From an uncultured Bacteroidaceae bacterium (GTDB lineage: Bacteria > CAIWAD01), in contig CAYFPS010000005.1 in the NCBI GenBank assembly GCA_964345075.1, positions 96,103-160,102 on the forward strand: a stretch of DNA of 64,000 bases, read 5' to 3'. The notes below the pieces were generated by a model. It made no database searches, was not told the origin of the DNA, and saw nothing but the letters and a program-made list of their open reading frames with translations. The translations under genes were made by a program, and so were the position numbers. Each line of letters begins with the position of its first letter. Within the stretch, counting starts at the first letter, position 1. This document shows positions 59,189 to 64,000 of this stretch, piece by piece.

Positions 59189-59724
59189 GATGCCAGTCTC
59201 AAGCAGGCCAGTGGGACAGTTGTCGACGCAGTCGGCAAATGGCCCCTGGCGAAGTGCCGAAGTCAATCGGCACGGCTCCGCTTCAGCAAGGACCGTCAGG
59301 GCCGAAGCTGACGGGCACACCCCCGGAACCTAGGTCCTCCGGCAAGCTGATTCGCGCGAGAATCAGGCGACCATTGGCCATCTCTCCTTGATCGTTTTGG
59401 TAGTTCCAGGGTCAAGGAGAACCATGGCCCGCCCTTTTTCAAGCCCAAGGGCTAACGGCCACGATCAATCCCACTTTTGCACAAATATCGGGACACAACC
59501 CTGCTTTGTGGTGAGTCAATTCTCCCGCGATTGCGGGAATGCGCGGTAAACTGTAGCTTCCAGACAGACTTGTTTGAGAATGGACAACTGGGGCGTGGGA
59601 GATTGGGGGAGCTGTTACTGAATCCCCACGCCTTATAGTTATCAACAAGCAACGCCCTATTTTGTAGCTGTTTACTGCAATCCATGGTGGATTGTGTCTG
59701 ACAAATACATTTCTGGAGGGTCGT

Positions 59725-62001: not shown

Positions 62002-64000
62002 ATGTGGCATACTTGGAACCAGGGTGCTCTCATGGTCGCATCCTTTTTGCTTACCTCGGCTGTGTTGGCAGACACTTATCACGTTCCTGGCGATTTCAGC
62101 CTGATTCAGGAGGCAATTCTTGCTGCTTCGGCGGATGGTGATACGATTTTGGTAGAGCCCGGACGTTATGTGGAAAACCTTGATTTCCTGGGGAAGGACA
62201 TTGTCCTGACTTCGCAATACCAGCTTGGCGGAGATGAGAGTATCATACACGAAACCATTCTGGATGGAGGACAGAATGGGTCCGTTGTGACCTTCGTCAA
62301 TGGTGAAAGCCGGGCCGCATTGCTGAACGGCTTTACAGTGACCAATGGTAGTGGAAGGGATAGAGACTTTCTCGGGACAATGGGTGGGGGGATCTACATT
62401 CAGTCGTCAGATCCAAGCGTAACCAACTGCTTGATAACCAGTAACACTTGCTCGAGCGCACTTGCTGGCGGTGGCGGCATCTATGTTGGTGGAGCTACAC
62501 CATACTTTGCAGGATTAGTCATCAGGGAGAATAGTTCGGCGAATCTGGGTGGCGGTTTATCCCTAGGTACAGCAAGCCCTGAACTTGACGCCTTGAACAG
62601 GTGCAGCATATACGCAAACAATGCATCGGCATACAACGATGTATATCAGTATGTTGCCGGCAATGATCCAGTGTTCTTTTATTTAGATAGCGCAACAGTT
62701 GATCATGTGGATCCCTACTTCCTAGGTGGAAGCGTCTCTTTGGAAGCCGACATTCTGCACGGTAAGTTAAGCCCAATTGCCAACAACCTGTGGGTATCGC
62801 CATTTGGCGATGATGAAAATGGAGGTCTGTCTGAGTTCGAGCCACTGAAGACCATTGCTCATGCCCTGGCCATCATCAATGCGGACTCCTTGCATCACCG
62901 GACCATACACCTGTTGCCGGGTACTTACAGCCCCTCCGATGGCCAGCTCTTTCCACTTAACCTCAGGTCCTACGTCACCCTTGAGGGAGCAGGACCGGAT
63001 TCCACAATTCTGGATATGGAGTTCACAGCCGTTCGCGTCTTTGGGGCCATTGACATGAAAGTGGATTGTTCGGTGAAGTCGCTTACCGTAAAACGTCTTG
63101 CTCGTGGTATTCCTGAGGTAGCATTTCACCTAATGCAGTGCACAGATTTACAGTTAAATGATCTTAGATTTACGGAAAACGACGCGTCCTTCCTTATTGC
63201 TTCCAGTATTTATGGCTGGATGAGCTTAATTCCCGGGACAAGCATTGTCGTTAAGGATTGCGTGTTTGACAGCAATAATTCTGTAAAGGCCTTGGGTTTA
63301 TCCTCGCATCAATACATGACTGTAGAAGGATGCACTTTTGACATGTGTACACCGCTAGATGGTATTCCGCCAGATGACATCCAGATAGGTGTAGCGTCAG
63401 GAATGAGTATGTCTGCCTACCTAGGATATGAGACTACTATTGAATACAAGCACAGGGTTAAAAACTGCGTTTTCACGCGCAATGTCTCCACTAACACTGG
63501 TGGGGCACGCTTTTCGCCTGGACTCAACCTCAGAAACTATAACGATCATCCGATTGATGTGGTGAACTGCACCTTTGCGGACAATTCCTCCCCCTATACC
63601 GGAGGACTCTGGCTTTCTCCCTGGAGTACTTCAGGCATGCAGGCACGAATCGCCAACTGCCTGTTTTGGGGCAATGAACCCTATCAGATTTGGATAGATG
63701 GAGATTACGCTCCCCCCGCACCGCCCATTCAAGTGCTGTTTTCGCATTGCCTGATTCAGGATGCAGAGGAAGGCGTATATGATTTTGGCAACACCGAAAC
63801 GCTGTTCCCTGAGGGCATCATCGATGCCGATCCGATTTTTTTGGGCGAAGGAGAAGCACCATATCGGCTTACTTCGGATTCGCCCGCCATTGATGCCGGG
63901 ACGGCATTCTGGGTCGTTGAAGGGGATACTGTTGTAAACCTGTCACAAGAAGATTTCGCGGGTAGTGCACCTGACATCGGCGCTTACGAATGGATCCCAA
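62002..64000 (+). CDS. Secreted parallel beta-helix repeat protein (Pmp/pectate-lyase-like); runs off the right edge of the window
   Basis: AGGAGG RBS and a signal peptide. Repeated GGG(I/L)Y..., NxxxGN and right-handed beta-helix rungs. Confidence 0.55.
   Translation, partial: MWHTWNQGALMVASFLLTSAVLADTYHVPGDFSLIQEAILAASADGDTILVEPGRYVENLDFLGKDIVLTSQYQLGGDESIIHETILDGGQNGSVVTFVNGESRAALLNGFTVTNGSGRDRDFLGTMGGGIYIQSSDPSVTNCLITSNTCSSALAGGGGIYVGGATPYFAGLVIRENSSANLGGGLSLGTASPELDALNRCSIYANNASAYNDVYQYVAGNDPVFFYLDSATVDHVDPYFLGGSVSLEADILHGKLSPIANNLWVSPFGDDENGGLSEFEPLKTIAHALAIINADSLHHRTIHLLPGTYSPSDGQLFPLNLRSYVTLEGAGPDSTILDMEFTAVRVFGAIDMKVDCSVKSLTVKRLARGIPEVAFHLMQCTDLQLNDLRFTENDASFLIASSIYGWMSLIPGTSIVVKDCVFDSNNSVKALGLSSHQYMTVEGCTFDMCTPLDGIPPDDIQIGVASGMSMSAYLGYETTIEYKHRVKNCVFTRNVSTNTGGARFSPGLNLRNYNDHPIDVVNCTFADNSSPYTGGLWLSPWSTSGMQARIANCLFWGNEPYQIWIDGDYAPPAPPIQVLFSHCLIQDAEEGVYDFGNTETLFPEGIIDADPIFLGEGEAPYRLTSDSPAIDAGTAFWVVEGDTVVNLSQEDFAGSAPDIGAYEWIP

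What the first reader, a model, noticed from the sequence alone, without database searches (positions are those of the whole stretch)
59200..64000. Compositionally distinct (lower GC) terminal block encoding a T9SS-exported Ntn-hydrolase and a beta-helix protein
From about 59.2 kb the GC content visibly drops and the genomic octamer is absent. The first gene fuses a YafJ-type class II glutamine amidotransferase / Ntn-hydrolase domain, including a Cys shortly after the signal peptide (QEHN-CDFVAF), to a type A T9SS sorting domain. That is an unusual secreted amidohydrolase. The 5-prime leader (59200-59720) is 520 bp and contains a stem (GGCGTGGG ... CCCACGCC, 59592-59632) and the (TTAGGCG)5 array, which links it to the TA-region repeat family.
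Basis: partly seen in the sequence, partly recalled or inferred. Interest (0 to 1): 0.5.

Follow-up and report, generated by a model that had tools for sequence, protein, structure and literature searches.

The report
Acquired two-gene cassette of exported enzymes
The low-GC end of the window is a roughly 5 kb imported two-gene unit, derived from an integron-type cassette, that encodes an exported cysteine amidohydrolase and its beta-helix partner; both belong to large families with no known function.

Summary
GC falls from 0.587 to 0.50 at about 59.5 kb, and GC3 falls from about 0.68 to 0.52. A contig 99.98% identical to the window shows GC back at 0.62-0.64 directly after gene 2.

Close relatives (about 84% nucleotide identity) lack the block. 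One runs collinear to 59503 and resumes at window-equivalent 64489, which defines a 4,985-bp insertion holding exactly the two genes.

Gene 1 (59725-61971, 748 aa) consists of a signal peptide, a YafJ/EgtC-type Cys-Ntn domain, an orphan middle domain of about 320 aa, and a T9SS type-A sorting domain. Cys45, the GHxR, HNG and DSE motifs and the predicted fold all fit the Ntn family. Gene 2 is a 765-aa DUF1565 beta-helix protein with its own sorting domain.

New findings:
- The exported Ntn domain defines about 775 protein clusters, with Cys at or just after the signal-peptide cleavage site.
- The middle domain and the beta-helix gene are neighbours in 41 of 52 metagenome loci, with other hydrolase heads swapped in.
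- Elsewhere the pair starts at G|TTAGGT, ends in an attC-like hairpin, or sits beside an integron-integrase fragment.

The window copy lacks about the first 23 nt of the cassette and has no attC. The biochemical function is inferred only. The heptamer array lies at 59146-59181, on the host side.

The parts
59146..59181 (+). It lies on the host side and starts in the ferredoxin stop codon (59149-51).
   Evidence: TRF gives period 7, 4.9 copies, 92% matches. Relatives L041 and L043, which lack the block, carry the same array. It does not fold (z +0.8 and +0.2). In this register the unit matches the integron core-site consensus GTTRRRY (my reading).
59152..59503 (.). Host-type intergenic sequence upstream of the insertion.
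   Evidence: Collinear with relative L042 up to 59503, and with L041/L043 only up to 59212.
59504..59724 (+). The cassette's own 5' untranslated region.
   Evidence: Homologous to the region after the G|TTAGGT cassette start in L021 and L045; the window copy begins about 23 nt inside the cassette (A6). RNA fold z = -3.08. Across three sequences 88% of cells are paired, and the RBS-proximal hairpin is invariant. No Rfam match.
59725..59844 (+). Gene 1, Sec signal peptide (aa 1-40, ...AESSQA|QEHN-C45).
   Evidence: The 10-aa Kyte-Doolittle maximum is 3.6. All 117 family representatives examined have a comparable hydrophobic stretch before the Cys. The cleavage site is inferred from the small -3/-1 residue rule.
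59857..60744 (+). Gene 1, Cys-Ntn amidohydrolase domain of the YafJ/EgtC (class-II GATase, Pfam GATase_4) type. The nucleophile Cys45 is at 59857-59859.
   Evidence: Pfam GATase_4 scores 25.7-28.8 bits against a cut-off of 23, and all 10 aligned members hit it. The PDB profile search finds 1te5 at E = 2.9e-5. hhalign against E. coli YafJ gives probability 94%. Foldseek's top hits are EgtC 4zfj, PurF, 1te5 and 3mdn, at probability 1.00.
60745..61719 (+). Gene 1, family-specific middle domain (MD, aa 341-665), mostly beta strand, with no known family.
   Evidence: No Pfam or PDB match. The model is unusable (pLDDT 50.6). Homologues occur in 52 metagenome loci, and 41 of these have a DUF1565 beta-helix gene just downstream.
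61732..61971 (+). Gene 1, T9SS type-A C-terminal sorting domain followed by the stop codon.
   Evidence: PF18962 scores 32.4 bits (cut-off 27) and TIGR04183 scores 34.9 bits (cut-off 23).
62002..64000 (+). Gene 2, a DUF1565 right-handed beta-helix protein cut off by the window end. The full protein is 765 aa with its own T9SS sorting domain, and its stop is at window-equivalent 64297-64299. The RBS AGGAGG is at 61991-96.
   Evidence: DUF1565 scores 43.9 bits and Beta_helix 43.7 bits. The full length and the Por_Secre_tail come from L040, which is 99.98% identical to window 58877-64000.

Best explanation
WHAT IT IS. The terminal block is a 4,985-bp horizontally acquired two-gene module. It runs from window position 59504 to window-equivalent 64488 and is cut by the window end. 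It descends from an integron-type gene cassette and is now fixed between a histidine-kinase/ferredoxin operon and a convergent T9SS peptidase gene.

WHAT IT ENCODES. Both products are type IX secretion cargo.
- Protein A has a Sec signal peptide, then a Cys-Ntn amidohydrolase 'head' of the YafJ/EgtC class-II-glutamine-amidotransferase fold, then an orphan middle domain of about 320 aa, then a type-A sorting domain.
- Protein B is a DUF1565 right-handed beta-helix protein with its own sorting domain.

PROPOSED MECHANISM.
1. Both proteins cross the inner membrane through Sec.
2. Signal peptidase cuts protein A after Ala40.
3. The remaining QEHN tetrapeptide is removed, by autoprocessing as in other Ntn hydrolases, which exposes Cys45 as the N-terminal nucleophile.
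4. The sorting domains route both proteins through the T9SS to the cell surface.
5. There the middle domain and the beta-helix protein work as a pair. The beta helix binds a polymeric or surface substrate, and the Ntn head hydrolyses a glutamine-type or gamma-glutamyl-type amide bond.

SHOWN VERSUS INFERRED. The architecture, the insertion, the conserved gene pairing, the head swapping, the family size and the conserved catalytic motifs are shown. The maturation steps, surface localisation, physical interaction and substrate are inferred.
For: INSERTION
- Relative L042 is collinear with the window from 50002 to 59503 and then resumes at window-equivalent 64489. L041 and L043 carry a different 387-aa T9SS gene at this site.
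- GC returns to 0.62-0.64 directly after gene 2.
- The GC, GC3 and tetranucleotide shifts are large.

CASSETTE ORIGIN
- In L021, L045, L007/L008 and L046 the module starts at a GTTAGGT core site.
- L007 and L046 carry a near-identical 58-59-nt hairpin just after the beta-helix stop, running ACCTAAC...GTTAG with bulged bases (z -3.5 and -4.2). Their sequences diverge after GTTAG.
- L021 is an array of TA-type genes lying between two attC-like hairpins, upstream of the Ntn gene.
- L045 has a divergent integron-integrase-like N-terminus: Phage_int_SAM_4 at 30.9 bits, and the best tblastn hits are annotated integron integrases.
- The window's 5' UTR aligns with L021 from about 23 nt inside the cassette.

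ENZYME
- Cys, GHxR, HPF, HNG, DSE and NFxxSDG are invariant or nearly invariant in 10 close and 65 distant members.
- The motifs are collinear with those of YafJ and 1te5.
- The predicted fold matches EgtC, PurF and 1te5.
- 123 of 129 family representatives have Cys at profile position 1. All 117 of these with enough N-terminal sequence have a hydrophobic signal-like stretch within the 32 residues before it.

PAIRING
- The Ntn gene and the beta-helix gene are adjacent in at least 8 lineages with different flanking genes.
- The middle domain is followed by a beta-helix gene in 41 of 52 loci.
- 12 of 65 Ntn-family proteins carry Beta_helix, NosD or DUF1565 in the same polypeptide.
- Middle-domain proteins with other heads exist: PGAP1-like esterase, peptidase M6, GLUG.

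SORTING DOMAINS.
Against: - The window copy has no attC: none in my ad-hoc scan and none with covariance model R2. It has no IntI (tblastn) and no GTTRRRY at either junction. Integron-mediated arrival at this site is therefore not shown.
- The cassette is atypical: two genes, 4.7 kb, with its own 5' UTR of about 240 nt.
- The integrase evidence in L045 is only a 40-aa N-terminal fragment at a contig end.
- The pair is GC-poorer than its flanks in 12 of 14 further loci, including low-GC hosts. Part of the GC deficit may therefore be intrinsic to this gene class.
- The Pfam GATase_4 hit for the window protein is barely above threshold and covers only 59 residues.
- The full-length model has pLDDT 58 overall.
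- No substrate, activity, interaction or localisation data exist.
- T9SS machinery genes were not looked for in the genome.
Confidence: 0.6

Rival explanations
1. The pair is native to this lineage. Its low GC is an intrinsic property of these large surface-protein genes, and the relatives lost the pair by deletion at a recombination-prone site.
For: The same gene class is GC-poorer than its flanks in 12 of 14 other loci, including low-GC hosts. The locus is a mosaic in every relative, which shows repeated rearrangement. Presence versus absence alone does not give the polarity of the change.
Against: GC3, a synonymous measure, drops by about 0.15, whereas another T9SS cargo gene nearby (the C25 peptidase) has normal GC3 of 0.67. 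Three independent assemblies of relatives lack the pair. The window's 5' UTR is a 5'-truncated copy of a unit that elsewhere begins at a GTTAGGT core site. The pair sits in unrelated contexts in other lineages.
Confidence: 0.12
2. The module reached this site by a route other than integron recombination. Candidates are homologous or illegitimate recombination at the flanking period-7 repeat arrays after transformation. On this view the integron features seen elsewhere are incidental to this copy.
For: There is no attC, no IntI and no G|TT junction in the window. The right junction lies inside a CTGG heptamer array that is also present at the empty site. All such arrays in the window mark variable intergenic zones.
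Against: The window copy is clearly the same unit that is cassette-bounded in L021, L045, L007 and L046. The GTTAGGC array 320 nt to the left matches the core-site consensus.
Confidence: 0.3
3. The two-gene unit is an antagonistic effector system. Interchangeable hydrolase 'warheads' (amidase, lipase/esterase, metalloprotease) are mounted on a constant middle domain and delivered by the T9SS together with the beta-helix partner, aimed at competing cells rather than at nutrients.
For: The heads swapped on a constant middle-domain/sorting-domain scaffold are PGAP1-like esterase, peptidase M6, GLUG and Ntn. These classes recall the amidase, lipase and protease classes of contact-dependent effectors (my knowledge). 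The unit is mobile and associated with TA modules.
Against: There is no small immunity-like ORF beside the pair: genes 1 and 2 are 30 nt apart and the next gene is a convergent peptidase. The variable part is N-terminal, unlike classic polymorphic toxins. The same enzyme classes are equally typical of digestive surface enzymes, and the host carries C25 and C10 peptidase cargo next door.
Confidence: 0.15
4. The conserved Cys is a lipoprotein acylation site, or the Ntn domain is catalytically dead. On this view protein A is a structural surface protein.
For: 12 of 117 family members fit a relaxed lipobox before the Cys. The Pfam hit is weak.
Against: The window protein has QEHN before the Cys, and 65 of 117 members have D, N or E at position -1, which is incompatible with a lipobox. 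The Cys aligns with position 1 of the Ntn profile. Arg, Asn-Gly and Asp/Glu, which in class-II GATases bind glutamine and form the oxyanion hole (established knowledge for PurF and GlmS), are invariant or nearly invariant across 65 distant members.
Confidence: 0.08

Closest known systems
YafJ / PA1307 (PDB 1te5) stand-alone class-II glutamine-amidotransferase-like proteins (Pfam GATase_4)
   Same: The closest relatives by sequence. The motifs DG(Y/W)G, GHxR, HPF, HNG, DSE and N(F/M)xxSDG are collinear, and the fold is the Ntn alpha-beta-beta-alpha sandwich. There is no fused synthase domain.
   Different: YafJ and PA1307 are cytoplasmic proteins of about 255 aa whose Cys follows the initiator Met. 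The window protein has a signal peptide, about 40 extra residues of insertions, a 320-aa middle domain and a T9SS sorting domain. Identity is about 14-23%.
EgtC (PDB 4zfj/4zfk/4zfl), the gamma-glutamyl-hercynylcysteine sulfoxide hydrolase of ergothioneine synthesis
   Same: It is the best structural match (Foldseek E = 1.4e-6, TM 0.63 on the target). It is an Ntn Cys amidohydrolase that cleaves a gamma-glutamyl amide without transferring ammonia, and it is the functional model I adopt.
   Different: EgtC is cytoplasmic and encoded in the egt operon. No egt genes are present here, and identity is 12-14%.
Glutaminase domains of PurF, GlmS and AsnB
   Same: The same fold and the same catalytic set: Cys1, Arg, Asn-Gly and Asp (residue roles are from established knowledge).
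   Different: Those domains are fused to synthase domains with an ammonia channel. No such acceptor domain exists here.
T9SS cargo proteins with type-A C-terminal domains (for example gingipain RgpB)
   Same: A signal peptide, a catalytic region and a C-terminal Por_Secre_tail/TIGR04183 domain. A C25 gingipain-like cargo gene lies 3.6 kb upstream. According to PMC11285876, T9SSs may be present in Cloacimonadota and other FCB (Fibrobacterota-Chlorobiota-Bacteroidota) phyla.
   Different: I found no description of a cargo with a class-II-GATase/Ntn catalytic domain.
Integron gene cassettes (IntI, attC with R''-L''...L'-R', crossover at G|TTRRRY)
   Same: In L007, L046, L021 and L045 the module starts at G|TTAGGT. 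It ends in a bulged hairpin of 58-97 nt bounded by RYYYAAC/GTTAG, or sits next to an IntI-like fragment and TA cassettes.
   Different: The cassette holds two genes, is 4.7 kb long and has its own structured 5' UTR. The window copy has lost the first ~23 nt and the attC, and no integrase is nearby.
Exported Cys-Ntn hydrolases of other families (penicillin V acylase / bile-salt hydrolase, peptidase C59)
   Same: The same logic: an Ntn Cys that becomes N-terminal after removal of a signal or pro-peptide (established knowledge).
   Different: A different Ntn family. There was no sequence or top structural match to it here.

Membership tests
Class-II glutamine amidotransferase-like Ntn hydrolases (Pfam GATase_4, YafJ/EgtC type) | Profile match above the curated threshold | tested here: met
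   The full protein scores 25.7 bits and the domain alone 28.8 bits, against a cut-off of 23. All 10 aligned members match (best E = 5e-10) and 43 of 65 distant members match. The match for the window protein is short (59 residues).
Class-II glutamine amidotransferase-like Ntn hydrolases (Pfam GATase_4, YafJ/EgtC type) | Ntn alpha-beta-beta-alpha fold | tested here: met
   The 18 best Foldseek PDB hits are all EgtC, PurF, 1te5 or 3mdn chains, at probability 1.00 and TM 0.6-0.67 on the stand-alone targets. The Ntn part of the model has pLDDT mostly 75-90.
Class-II glutamine amidotransferase-like Ntn hydrolases (Pfam GATase_4, YafJ/EgtC type) | Cys nucleophile as the first residue of the mature domain | tested here: inconclusive
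   Cys is at profile position 1 in 123 of 129 representatives, directly or 1-5 residues after a signal-peptide-like stretch. In the window protein it is 4 residues after the predicted cleavage site. Actual maturation cannot be tested with these tools.
Class-II glutamine amidotransferase-like Ntn hydrolases (Pfam GATase_4, YafJ/EgtC type) | Oxyanion-hole Asn-Gly, plus the Arg and Asp that bind the glutamyl alpha-carboxylate and alpha-amine | tested here: met
   In alignment A2, H100/R102, H126-N127-G128 and D174-S175-E176 are invariant. The equivalent Arg, Asn-Gly and Glu are invariant, and the Asp at least 90% conserved, in 65 distant members. They align with the same motifs in YafJ. Residue roles are taken from established PurF and GlmS work.
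Class-II glutamine amidotransferase-like Ntn hydrolases (Pfam GATase_4, YafJ/EgtC type) | Coupled synthase/acceptor domain (true amidotransferases only) | tested here: not met
   There is no synthase domain. The rest of the protein is the orphan middle domain plus the sorting domain. The protein should therefore be filed with the stand-alone hydrolases (YafJ/EgtC), not with the amidotransferases.
T9SS type-A cargo | C-terminal type-A sorting domain above threshold, at the extreme C-terminus | tested here: met
   Gene 1: PF18962 at 32.4 bits (cut-off 27) and TIGR04183 at 34.9 bits (cut-off 23), covering aa 670-745 of 748. Gene 2: Por_Secre_tail (weak) on the full protein from L040, with a C-terminal PNPFNP...GIY...LLR pattern.
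T9SS type-A cargo | N-terminal Sec signal peptide | tested here: met
   A heuristic test only, based on a hydrophobic core and small -3/-1 residues. No dedicated signal-peptide predictor was available.
T9SS type-A cargo | T9SS machinery in the same genome, and actual secretion | not tested
   Only 64 kb was available. Other cargo-like genes are present (C25 peptidase). The literature says T9SSs may be present in Cloacimonadota (PMC11285876).
Integron gene cassette | attC recombination site at the 3' end | tested here: not met
   For the window copy there is none, either in the ad-hoc RYYYAAC...GTTRRRY hairpin scan or with covariance model R2. For copies L007 and L046 the feature is met: a 58-59-nt bulged hairpin, ACCTAAC...GTTAG.
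Integron gene cassette | 5' boundary at G|TTRRRY | tested here: not met
   The window junction reads ...ACAACCCTG|CTTTGTGG, and the copy starts about 23 nt inside the unit. The feature is met in L021, L045, L007/L008 and L046, all with GTTAGGT.
Integron gene cassette | Integron integrase (IntI) in the vicinity | tested here: not met
   tblastn with two IntI proteins gives no hit in the window at E = 1e-4. Only L045 shows a 40-aa IntI-like N-terminus at a contig end.
Horizontally acquired genomic island | Atypical composition together with absence from the orthologous site of close relatives | tested here: met
   for composition. for the empty site. for the return of GC after gene 2.

The most novel reading that the evidence does not exclude
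The block represents an undescribed modular two-component surface system of T9SS-bearing FCB-group bacteria. One component is a constant orphan middle domain of about 320 aa plus sorting domain, carrying interchangeable N-terminal hydrolase heads: Cys-Ntn amidase, PGAP1-like esterase, M6 metalloprotease or GLUG. The other is a dedicated DUF1565 beta-helix partner protein. The unit can move between genomes as an unusually large two-gene integron cassette.

The Ntn head itself would define a large family (about 775 clusters) of exported class-II-GATase-like amidohydrolases. In these, signal-peptide cleavage, rather than Met removal, places the catalytic Cys at or next to the mature N-terminus.
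Probability: 0.4. Interest if true: 0.7.

Novelty: new variant of a known kind. Interest (0 to 1): 0.58.

Why it matters
- Class-II glutamine-amidotransferase-type Ntn domains are textbook cytoplasmic biosynthetic modules. A large, conserved family that is exported, and whose catalytic Cys sits at the signal-peptide junction, implies an extracellular glutamine or gamma-glutamyl amidase activity that nobody has assayed. Possible substrates include peptides, peptidoglycan stem peptides and poly-gamma-glutamate.
- The conserved pairing of the middle domain with the beta-helix gene, with swappable heads, gives a concrete hypothesis for how uncultured Cloacimonadota-like bacteria assemble surface enzymes.
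- The cassette boundaries show that integron-type recombination can move 4.7-kb two-gene units encoding secretion cargo, well beyond the small single-gene cassettes usually considered.
- For genome annotation, the case is a clean worked example of a compositional island validated by an empty site.

Tried and rejected
- **Rfam.** Neither the whole window at gathering threshold nor the leader at E <= 1 gave a match.
- **Promoter and terminator scan.** Nothing above the shuffled expectation.
- **Middle domain.** No Pfam or PDB sequence hit. AlphaFold on an 8-sequence alignment gave pLDDT 50.6, so I ran no fold search on it.
- **Beta-helix protein.** No PDB sequence hit.
- **attC detection.**
  - A strict RYYYAAC/GTTRRRY scan found nothing useful.
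  - A relaxed scan gave 99 hits, mostly false positives in coding sequence, plus the real elements in L007, L046, L021 and L014.
  - The first covariance model, R1, captured only the central stem.
  - Model R2, built with a hand-given structure, found only its training set plus one weak hit in L025, and nothing in the window.
  - MAFFT could not align attC-like sites of different lengths.
- **IntI.** tblastn found nothing in the window or in any locus at E = 1e-4.
- **Exact look-ups.** The window's MutS and protein P0174 were not on record. Cluster look-ups returned no taxon names.
- **Heptamer array as a structure.** It does not fold, so I rejected the idea.
- **Low GC from amino-acid composition alone.** Rejected, because GC3 falls as well.
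- **Lipoprotein reading of the Cys.** Rejected on the residues at positions -1 to -3.
- **Literature.** Searches for exported YafJ/EgtC-like enzymes, for Ntn T9SS cargo, and for integrons in Cloacimonadota found nothing relevant.

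
Full report
**1. The observation**

GC is 0.587 for positions 1-59150 and 0.504 for 59151-64000. No upstream window of the same size falls below 0.562 (sd 0.011). With 500-bp windows the fall begins at about 59.4-59.5 kb, not at 59.2 kb.

The shift is not an amino-acid effect. GC3 is 0.53 and 0.51 in the two terminal genes, against 0.56-0.76 in the other 37 ORFs. That set includes another T9SS cargo gene, the C25 peptidase, at 0.67. Tetranucleotide distance to the rest of the window is 0.36, against an upstream mean of 0.17 (sd 0.035).

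The 'genomic octamer' is GTGATACA/TGTATCAC. It occurs 51 times in unique contexts on both strands, the last time at 55656. It is absent from the block, but it is also absent from 20.8-37.3 kb.

**2. Boundaries of the block**

The exact product of gene 1 is encoded on an ENA metagenome contig, L040, which is 99.98% identical to window 58877-64000 and runs 946 nt further. From it:
- Gene 2 is 765 aa and carries a T9SS sorting domain.
- Its stop is at window-equivalent 64297-64299.
- GC is back at 0.62-0.64 immediately afterwards.
- The next gene is convergent and is another T9SS cargo gene.

Homologues of the upstream histidine kinase led to syntenic relatives at about 84% nucleotide identity.
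- L042 (NCBI GCA_046766335.1) is collinear with the window from 50002 to 59503 and then continues at window-equivalent 64489.
- L041 and L043 are collinear only to 59212. At this site they carry a different 387-aa CHU_C/Por_Secre_tail gene, followed by the same convergent peptidase gene.

The block is therefore a 4,985-bp insertion (59504 to window-equivalent 64488) that contains exactly the two genes. It sits in a locus that differs among close relatives.

**3. Gene 1**

The start is ATG 59725, preceded by GGAGG at 59715-19. The protein is 748 aa.

*Sorting domain.* Pfam and NCBIfam place a type-A T9SS sorting domain at the C-terminus: 32.4 bits against a cut-off of 27, and 34.9 bits against 23.

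*Ntn domain.* The N-terminal 300 residues after the signal peptide match GATase_4, weakly for the window protein (25.7 bits against 23). The match is consistent, though: all 10 aligned homologues hit it, with a best E of 5e-10. Further support:
- A profile of the domain finds PDB 1te5 (PA1307, YafJ-like) at E = 2.9e-5, and 3mdn.
- hhalign against E. coli YafJ gives 94% probability over 175 columns. The motifs DGYG/DGWG, GHxR, HPF, HNG, DSE and NFxxSDG are collinear.
- The AlphaFold model (pLDDT 58 overall, mostly 75-90 in this domain) retrieves EgtC, PurF, 1te5 and 3mdn as its top Foldseek hits.

*Catalytic residues.* Cys45, the Arg of GHARNG, the Asn-Gly of HNG and the Asp/Glu of DSE are invariant among close homologues. 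They are invariant or at least 90% conserved in 65 distant ones. From established work on PurF and GlmS, these are the nucleophile, the glutamine alpha-carboxylate ligand, the oxyanion hole and the alpha-amine ligand. I therefore infer an active hydrolase that acts on a glutamine-type or gamma-glutamyl-type amide. There is no synthase domain, so it resembles EgtC and YafJ rather than a true amidotransferase.

**4. An exported family**

An exhaustive profile search found 775 clusters (at 50% identity) with E <= 1e-3, and 120 with E <= 1e-30.
- In 123 of 129 representatives whose match begins at the profile start, position 1 is Cys, nearly always within the first 60 residues.
- For the 117 of these with enough N-terminal sequence, all have a strongly hydrophobic stretch within the 32 residues before the Cys.
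- 50 have a small residue at position -1, so signal peptidase could expose the Cys directly.
- 42 have a single D, N or E in between.
- Only 12 fit even a relaxed lipobox.

In the window protein the predicted cleavage after Ala40 leaves QEHN before Cys45. Autoprocessing of short propeptides is known for Ntn enzymes (established knowledge).

In species-representative genomes the domain is found mostly in Cloacimonadota. It also occurs in Omnitrophota, Neomarinimicrobiota, Armatimonadota, Zixibacteria and MAGs labelled 'Bacteroidia'.

The window's own MutS is closest (63%) to a protein labelled Candidatus Cloacimonetes. The next tier, at 49-53%, is KSB1, Calditrichota and Zixibacteria. The gene family is thus typical of the host's wider phylogenetic neighbourhood, not an import from a distant phylum. 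The literature held here says T9SSs may be present in Cloacimonadota (PMC11285876). It contains nothing on exported YafJ/EgtC-like enzymes.

**5. Gene 2 and the pairing**

Gene 2 has DUF1565 and Beta_helix matches and a signal peptide.

*Adjacency.* Gene 1 homologues sit next to a DUF1565 beta-helix gene in every lineage with enough sequence, although the flanking genes differ each time.

*The middle domain.* The 320-aa middle region of protein A has no Pfam or PDB relative and could not be modelled. It is nevertheless the constant element of the system. A metagenome scan with it returned 52 loci, and in 41 of them a beta-helix gene follows about 0.5 kb downstream.

*Swapped heads.* In most of those proteins the N-terminal head is not Ntn. 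It is a PGAP1-like alpha/beta hydrolase, a peptidase M6, GLUG repeats, a beta helix, or unknown.

*Fusions.* Conversely, 12 of 65 Ntn-family proteins carry Beta_helix, NosD or DUF1565 in the same chain.

Conserved neighbourhood together with fusions argues that head, middle domain and beta helix work together. My inference is a surface complex in which the beta helix binds a polymer and the head cuts.

**6. Cassette origin**

- In L045 (75% amino-acid identity) a divergent minus-strand ORF at the contig end reads MQNPKLLDRLHEEILKRHLSPRTESSYKHWIVRFIRHYGL. It matches Phage_int_SAM_4 at 30.9 bits, and its best tblastn matches on plasmids are annotated integron integrases.
- In L045 and L021 the unit begins at GTTAGGTTTTCAA. 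In L007/L008 and L046 it begins at GTTAGGTTCATT. In each case the preceding sequences are unrelated.
- In L007 and L046 a near-identical 58-59-nt hairpin follows the beta-helix stop: ACCTAAC-...-GTTAG, with bulged bases (z -3.5 and -4.2). After GTTAG the two loci diverge.
- In L021 the unit is preceded by TA-type genes (Gp49/HTH and PIN/Phd) that lie between two attC-like hairpins.

These are the hallmarks of integron cassettes, namely crossover at G|TTRRRY and an attC with R''/R' ends (established knowledge).

The window's 221-nt 5' UTR aligns with L021 from CTTTGTGGTGA onward, about 23 nt inside the unit. The window copy has no attC, no IntI and no GTT junction. The copy here is therefore a truncated, fixed descendant of a cassette. 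How it entered this site is open.

**7. The leader and the repeats**

*Hairpins.* The cassette 5' UTR folds better than shuffled sequence (z = -3.08). Across the window, L021 and L045:
- A hairpin at 59524-37 is partly compensated.
- The palindrome CAATCCA-N3-TGGATTG, about 30 nt before the ATG, is invariant.

Three sequences are too few to prove an RNA structure, and the palindrome could equally be a protein operator.

*Heptamer array.* The array is at 59146-59181, on the host side, and relatives that lack the block also have it. All period-7 arrays in the window (GTTAGGC type and CTGG/CCAG type) lie in three intergenic zones:
- 21.5-24.0 kb, around two TA modules (confirmed)
- 59.15 kb
- 64.4-64.5 kb

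They therefore bracket variable segments. Read in the right register, the unit GTTAGGC fits GTTRRRY. This is suggestive but remains unexplained.

**8. Caveats**

- The pair is GC-poorer than its flanks in 12 of 14 further loci, including low-GC hosts. GC alone would therefore overstate foreignness. The case for insertion rests on the empty site and the truncated cassette end.
- The integrase evidence is a 40-aa fragment.
- Substrate, maturation, localisation and interaction are all inferences.

**9. Verdict**

In kind, this is a new variant of known things: an Ntn hydrolase, T9SS cargo and an integron cassette. Its unusual aspects are the export of a class-II-GATase-type enzyme family, the modular system of head, middle domain and beta-helix partner, and the size of the cassette.

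Noticed in passing
window 45-55663 (51 sites); none in 20801-37351 or after 55663: The octamer GTGATACA/TGTATCAC occurs 51 times in unique contexts on both strands (28 forward, 23 reverse), where about 2 would be expected for an 8-mer in 64 kb. It is missing from the two compositionally atypical stretches (about 21-37 kb, and the terminal block). It behaves like a lineage-specific genomic signature, such as an uptake or architecture sequence.
   Followed up: partly
window 21553-21580, 22510-22575, 22777-22800, 23544-23700, 23886-23942, 59144-59181; window-equivalent 64403-64517 (L040 5527-5641): Period-7 arrays (GTTAGGC/GCCTAAC type and CTGGNNN/CCAGNNN type) occur only in three intergenic zones that flank strain-variable segments; composition shuffles give about 0-0.3 per pattern. 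The GTTAGGC unit matches the integron core-site consensus GTTRRRY. Relatives L041-L043 carry the same arrays at the same locus.
   Followed up: partly
window 21715-22379 (+) and 22878-23482 (-): There are two type II toxin-antitoxin modules: MazE-like antitoxin with a PIN_3 toxin, and an RHH antitoxin with a PemK/MazF toxin. They are separated by repeats of 130-230 bp (81-95% identical) that contain the perfect palindrome GTGCCAGACACGTGTCTGGCAC and small GC-rich hairpins. The layout resembles a cassette array, but no canonical attC was found.
   Followed up: partly
window about 24000-38000: This is a second compositionally atypical stretch. GC is normal, but the GC-normalised tetranucleotide correlation falls to 0.71-0.85, GC3 is about 0.75, GC1 is about 0.58-0.60, and there are no octamers. 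It encodes four very large minus-strand proteins of 925-1407 aa.
   Followed up: no
window 58945-59151: A 68-aa 2x[4Fe-4S] ferredoxin gene overlaps the 3' end of the histidine-kinase gene by 14 nt, which suggests a co-transcribed kinase-ferredoxin pair.
   Followed up: no
L041 11842-13699; L042 12341-12642; L043 12040-12340: The site occupied by the block in the window is a hot spot. Close relatives carry a different 387-aa CHU_C/Por_Secre_tail cargo gene there, with different combinations of the flanking repeat arrays.
   Followed up: partly
L006 183-7633: A low-GC relative has three tandem genes of about 770 aa. The Ntn/middle-domain gene is flanked on both sides by FlgD_ig/Por_Secre_tail proteins, at least one of which is beta-helix-like.
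   Followed up: no
L058, L061, L062, L066, L072, L076 (middle-domain proteins): Proteins of 940-1610 aa carry the same middle domain and sorting domain behind other heads: GLUG, PGAP1-like alpha/beta hydrolase, peptidase M6 and Beta_helix. Each is followed by a DUF1565 beta-helix gene.
   Followed up: partly
L089 2520-2580: In one Ntn-type locus a strong 61-nt hairpin (GTTAAAC...GTTGATT, -36 kcal/mol) lies between the Ntn/middle-domain gene and the beta-helix gene. The two genes may therefore be separate cassettes there, or this may be a terminator.
   Followed up: no
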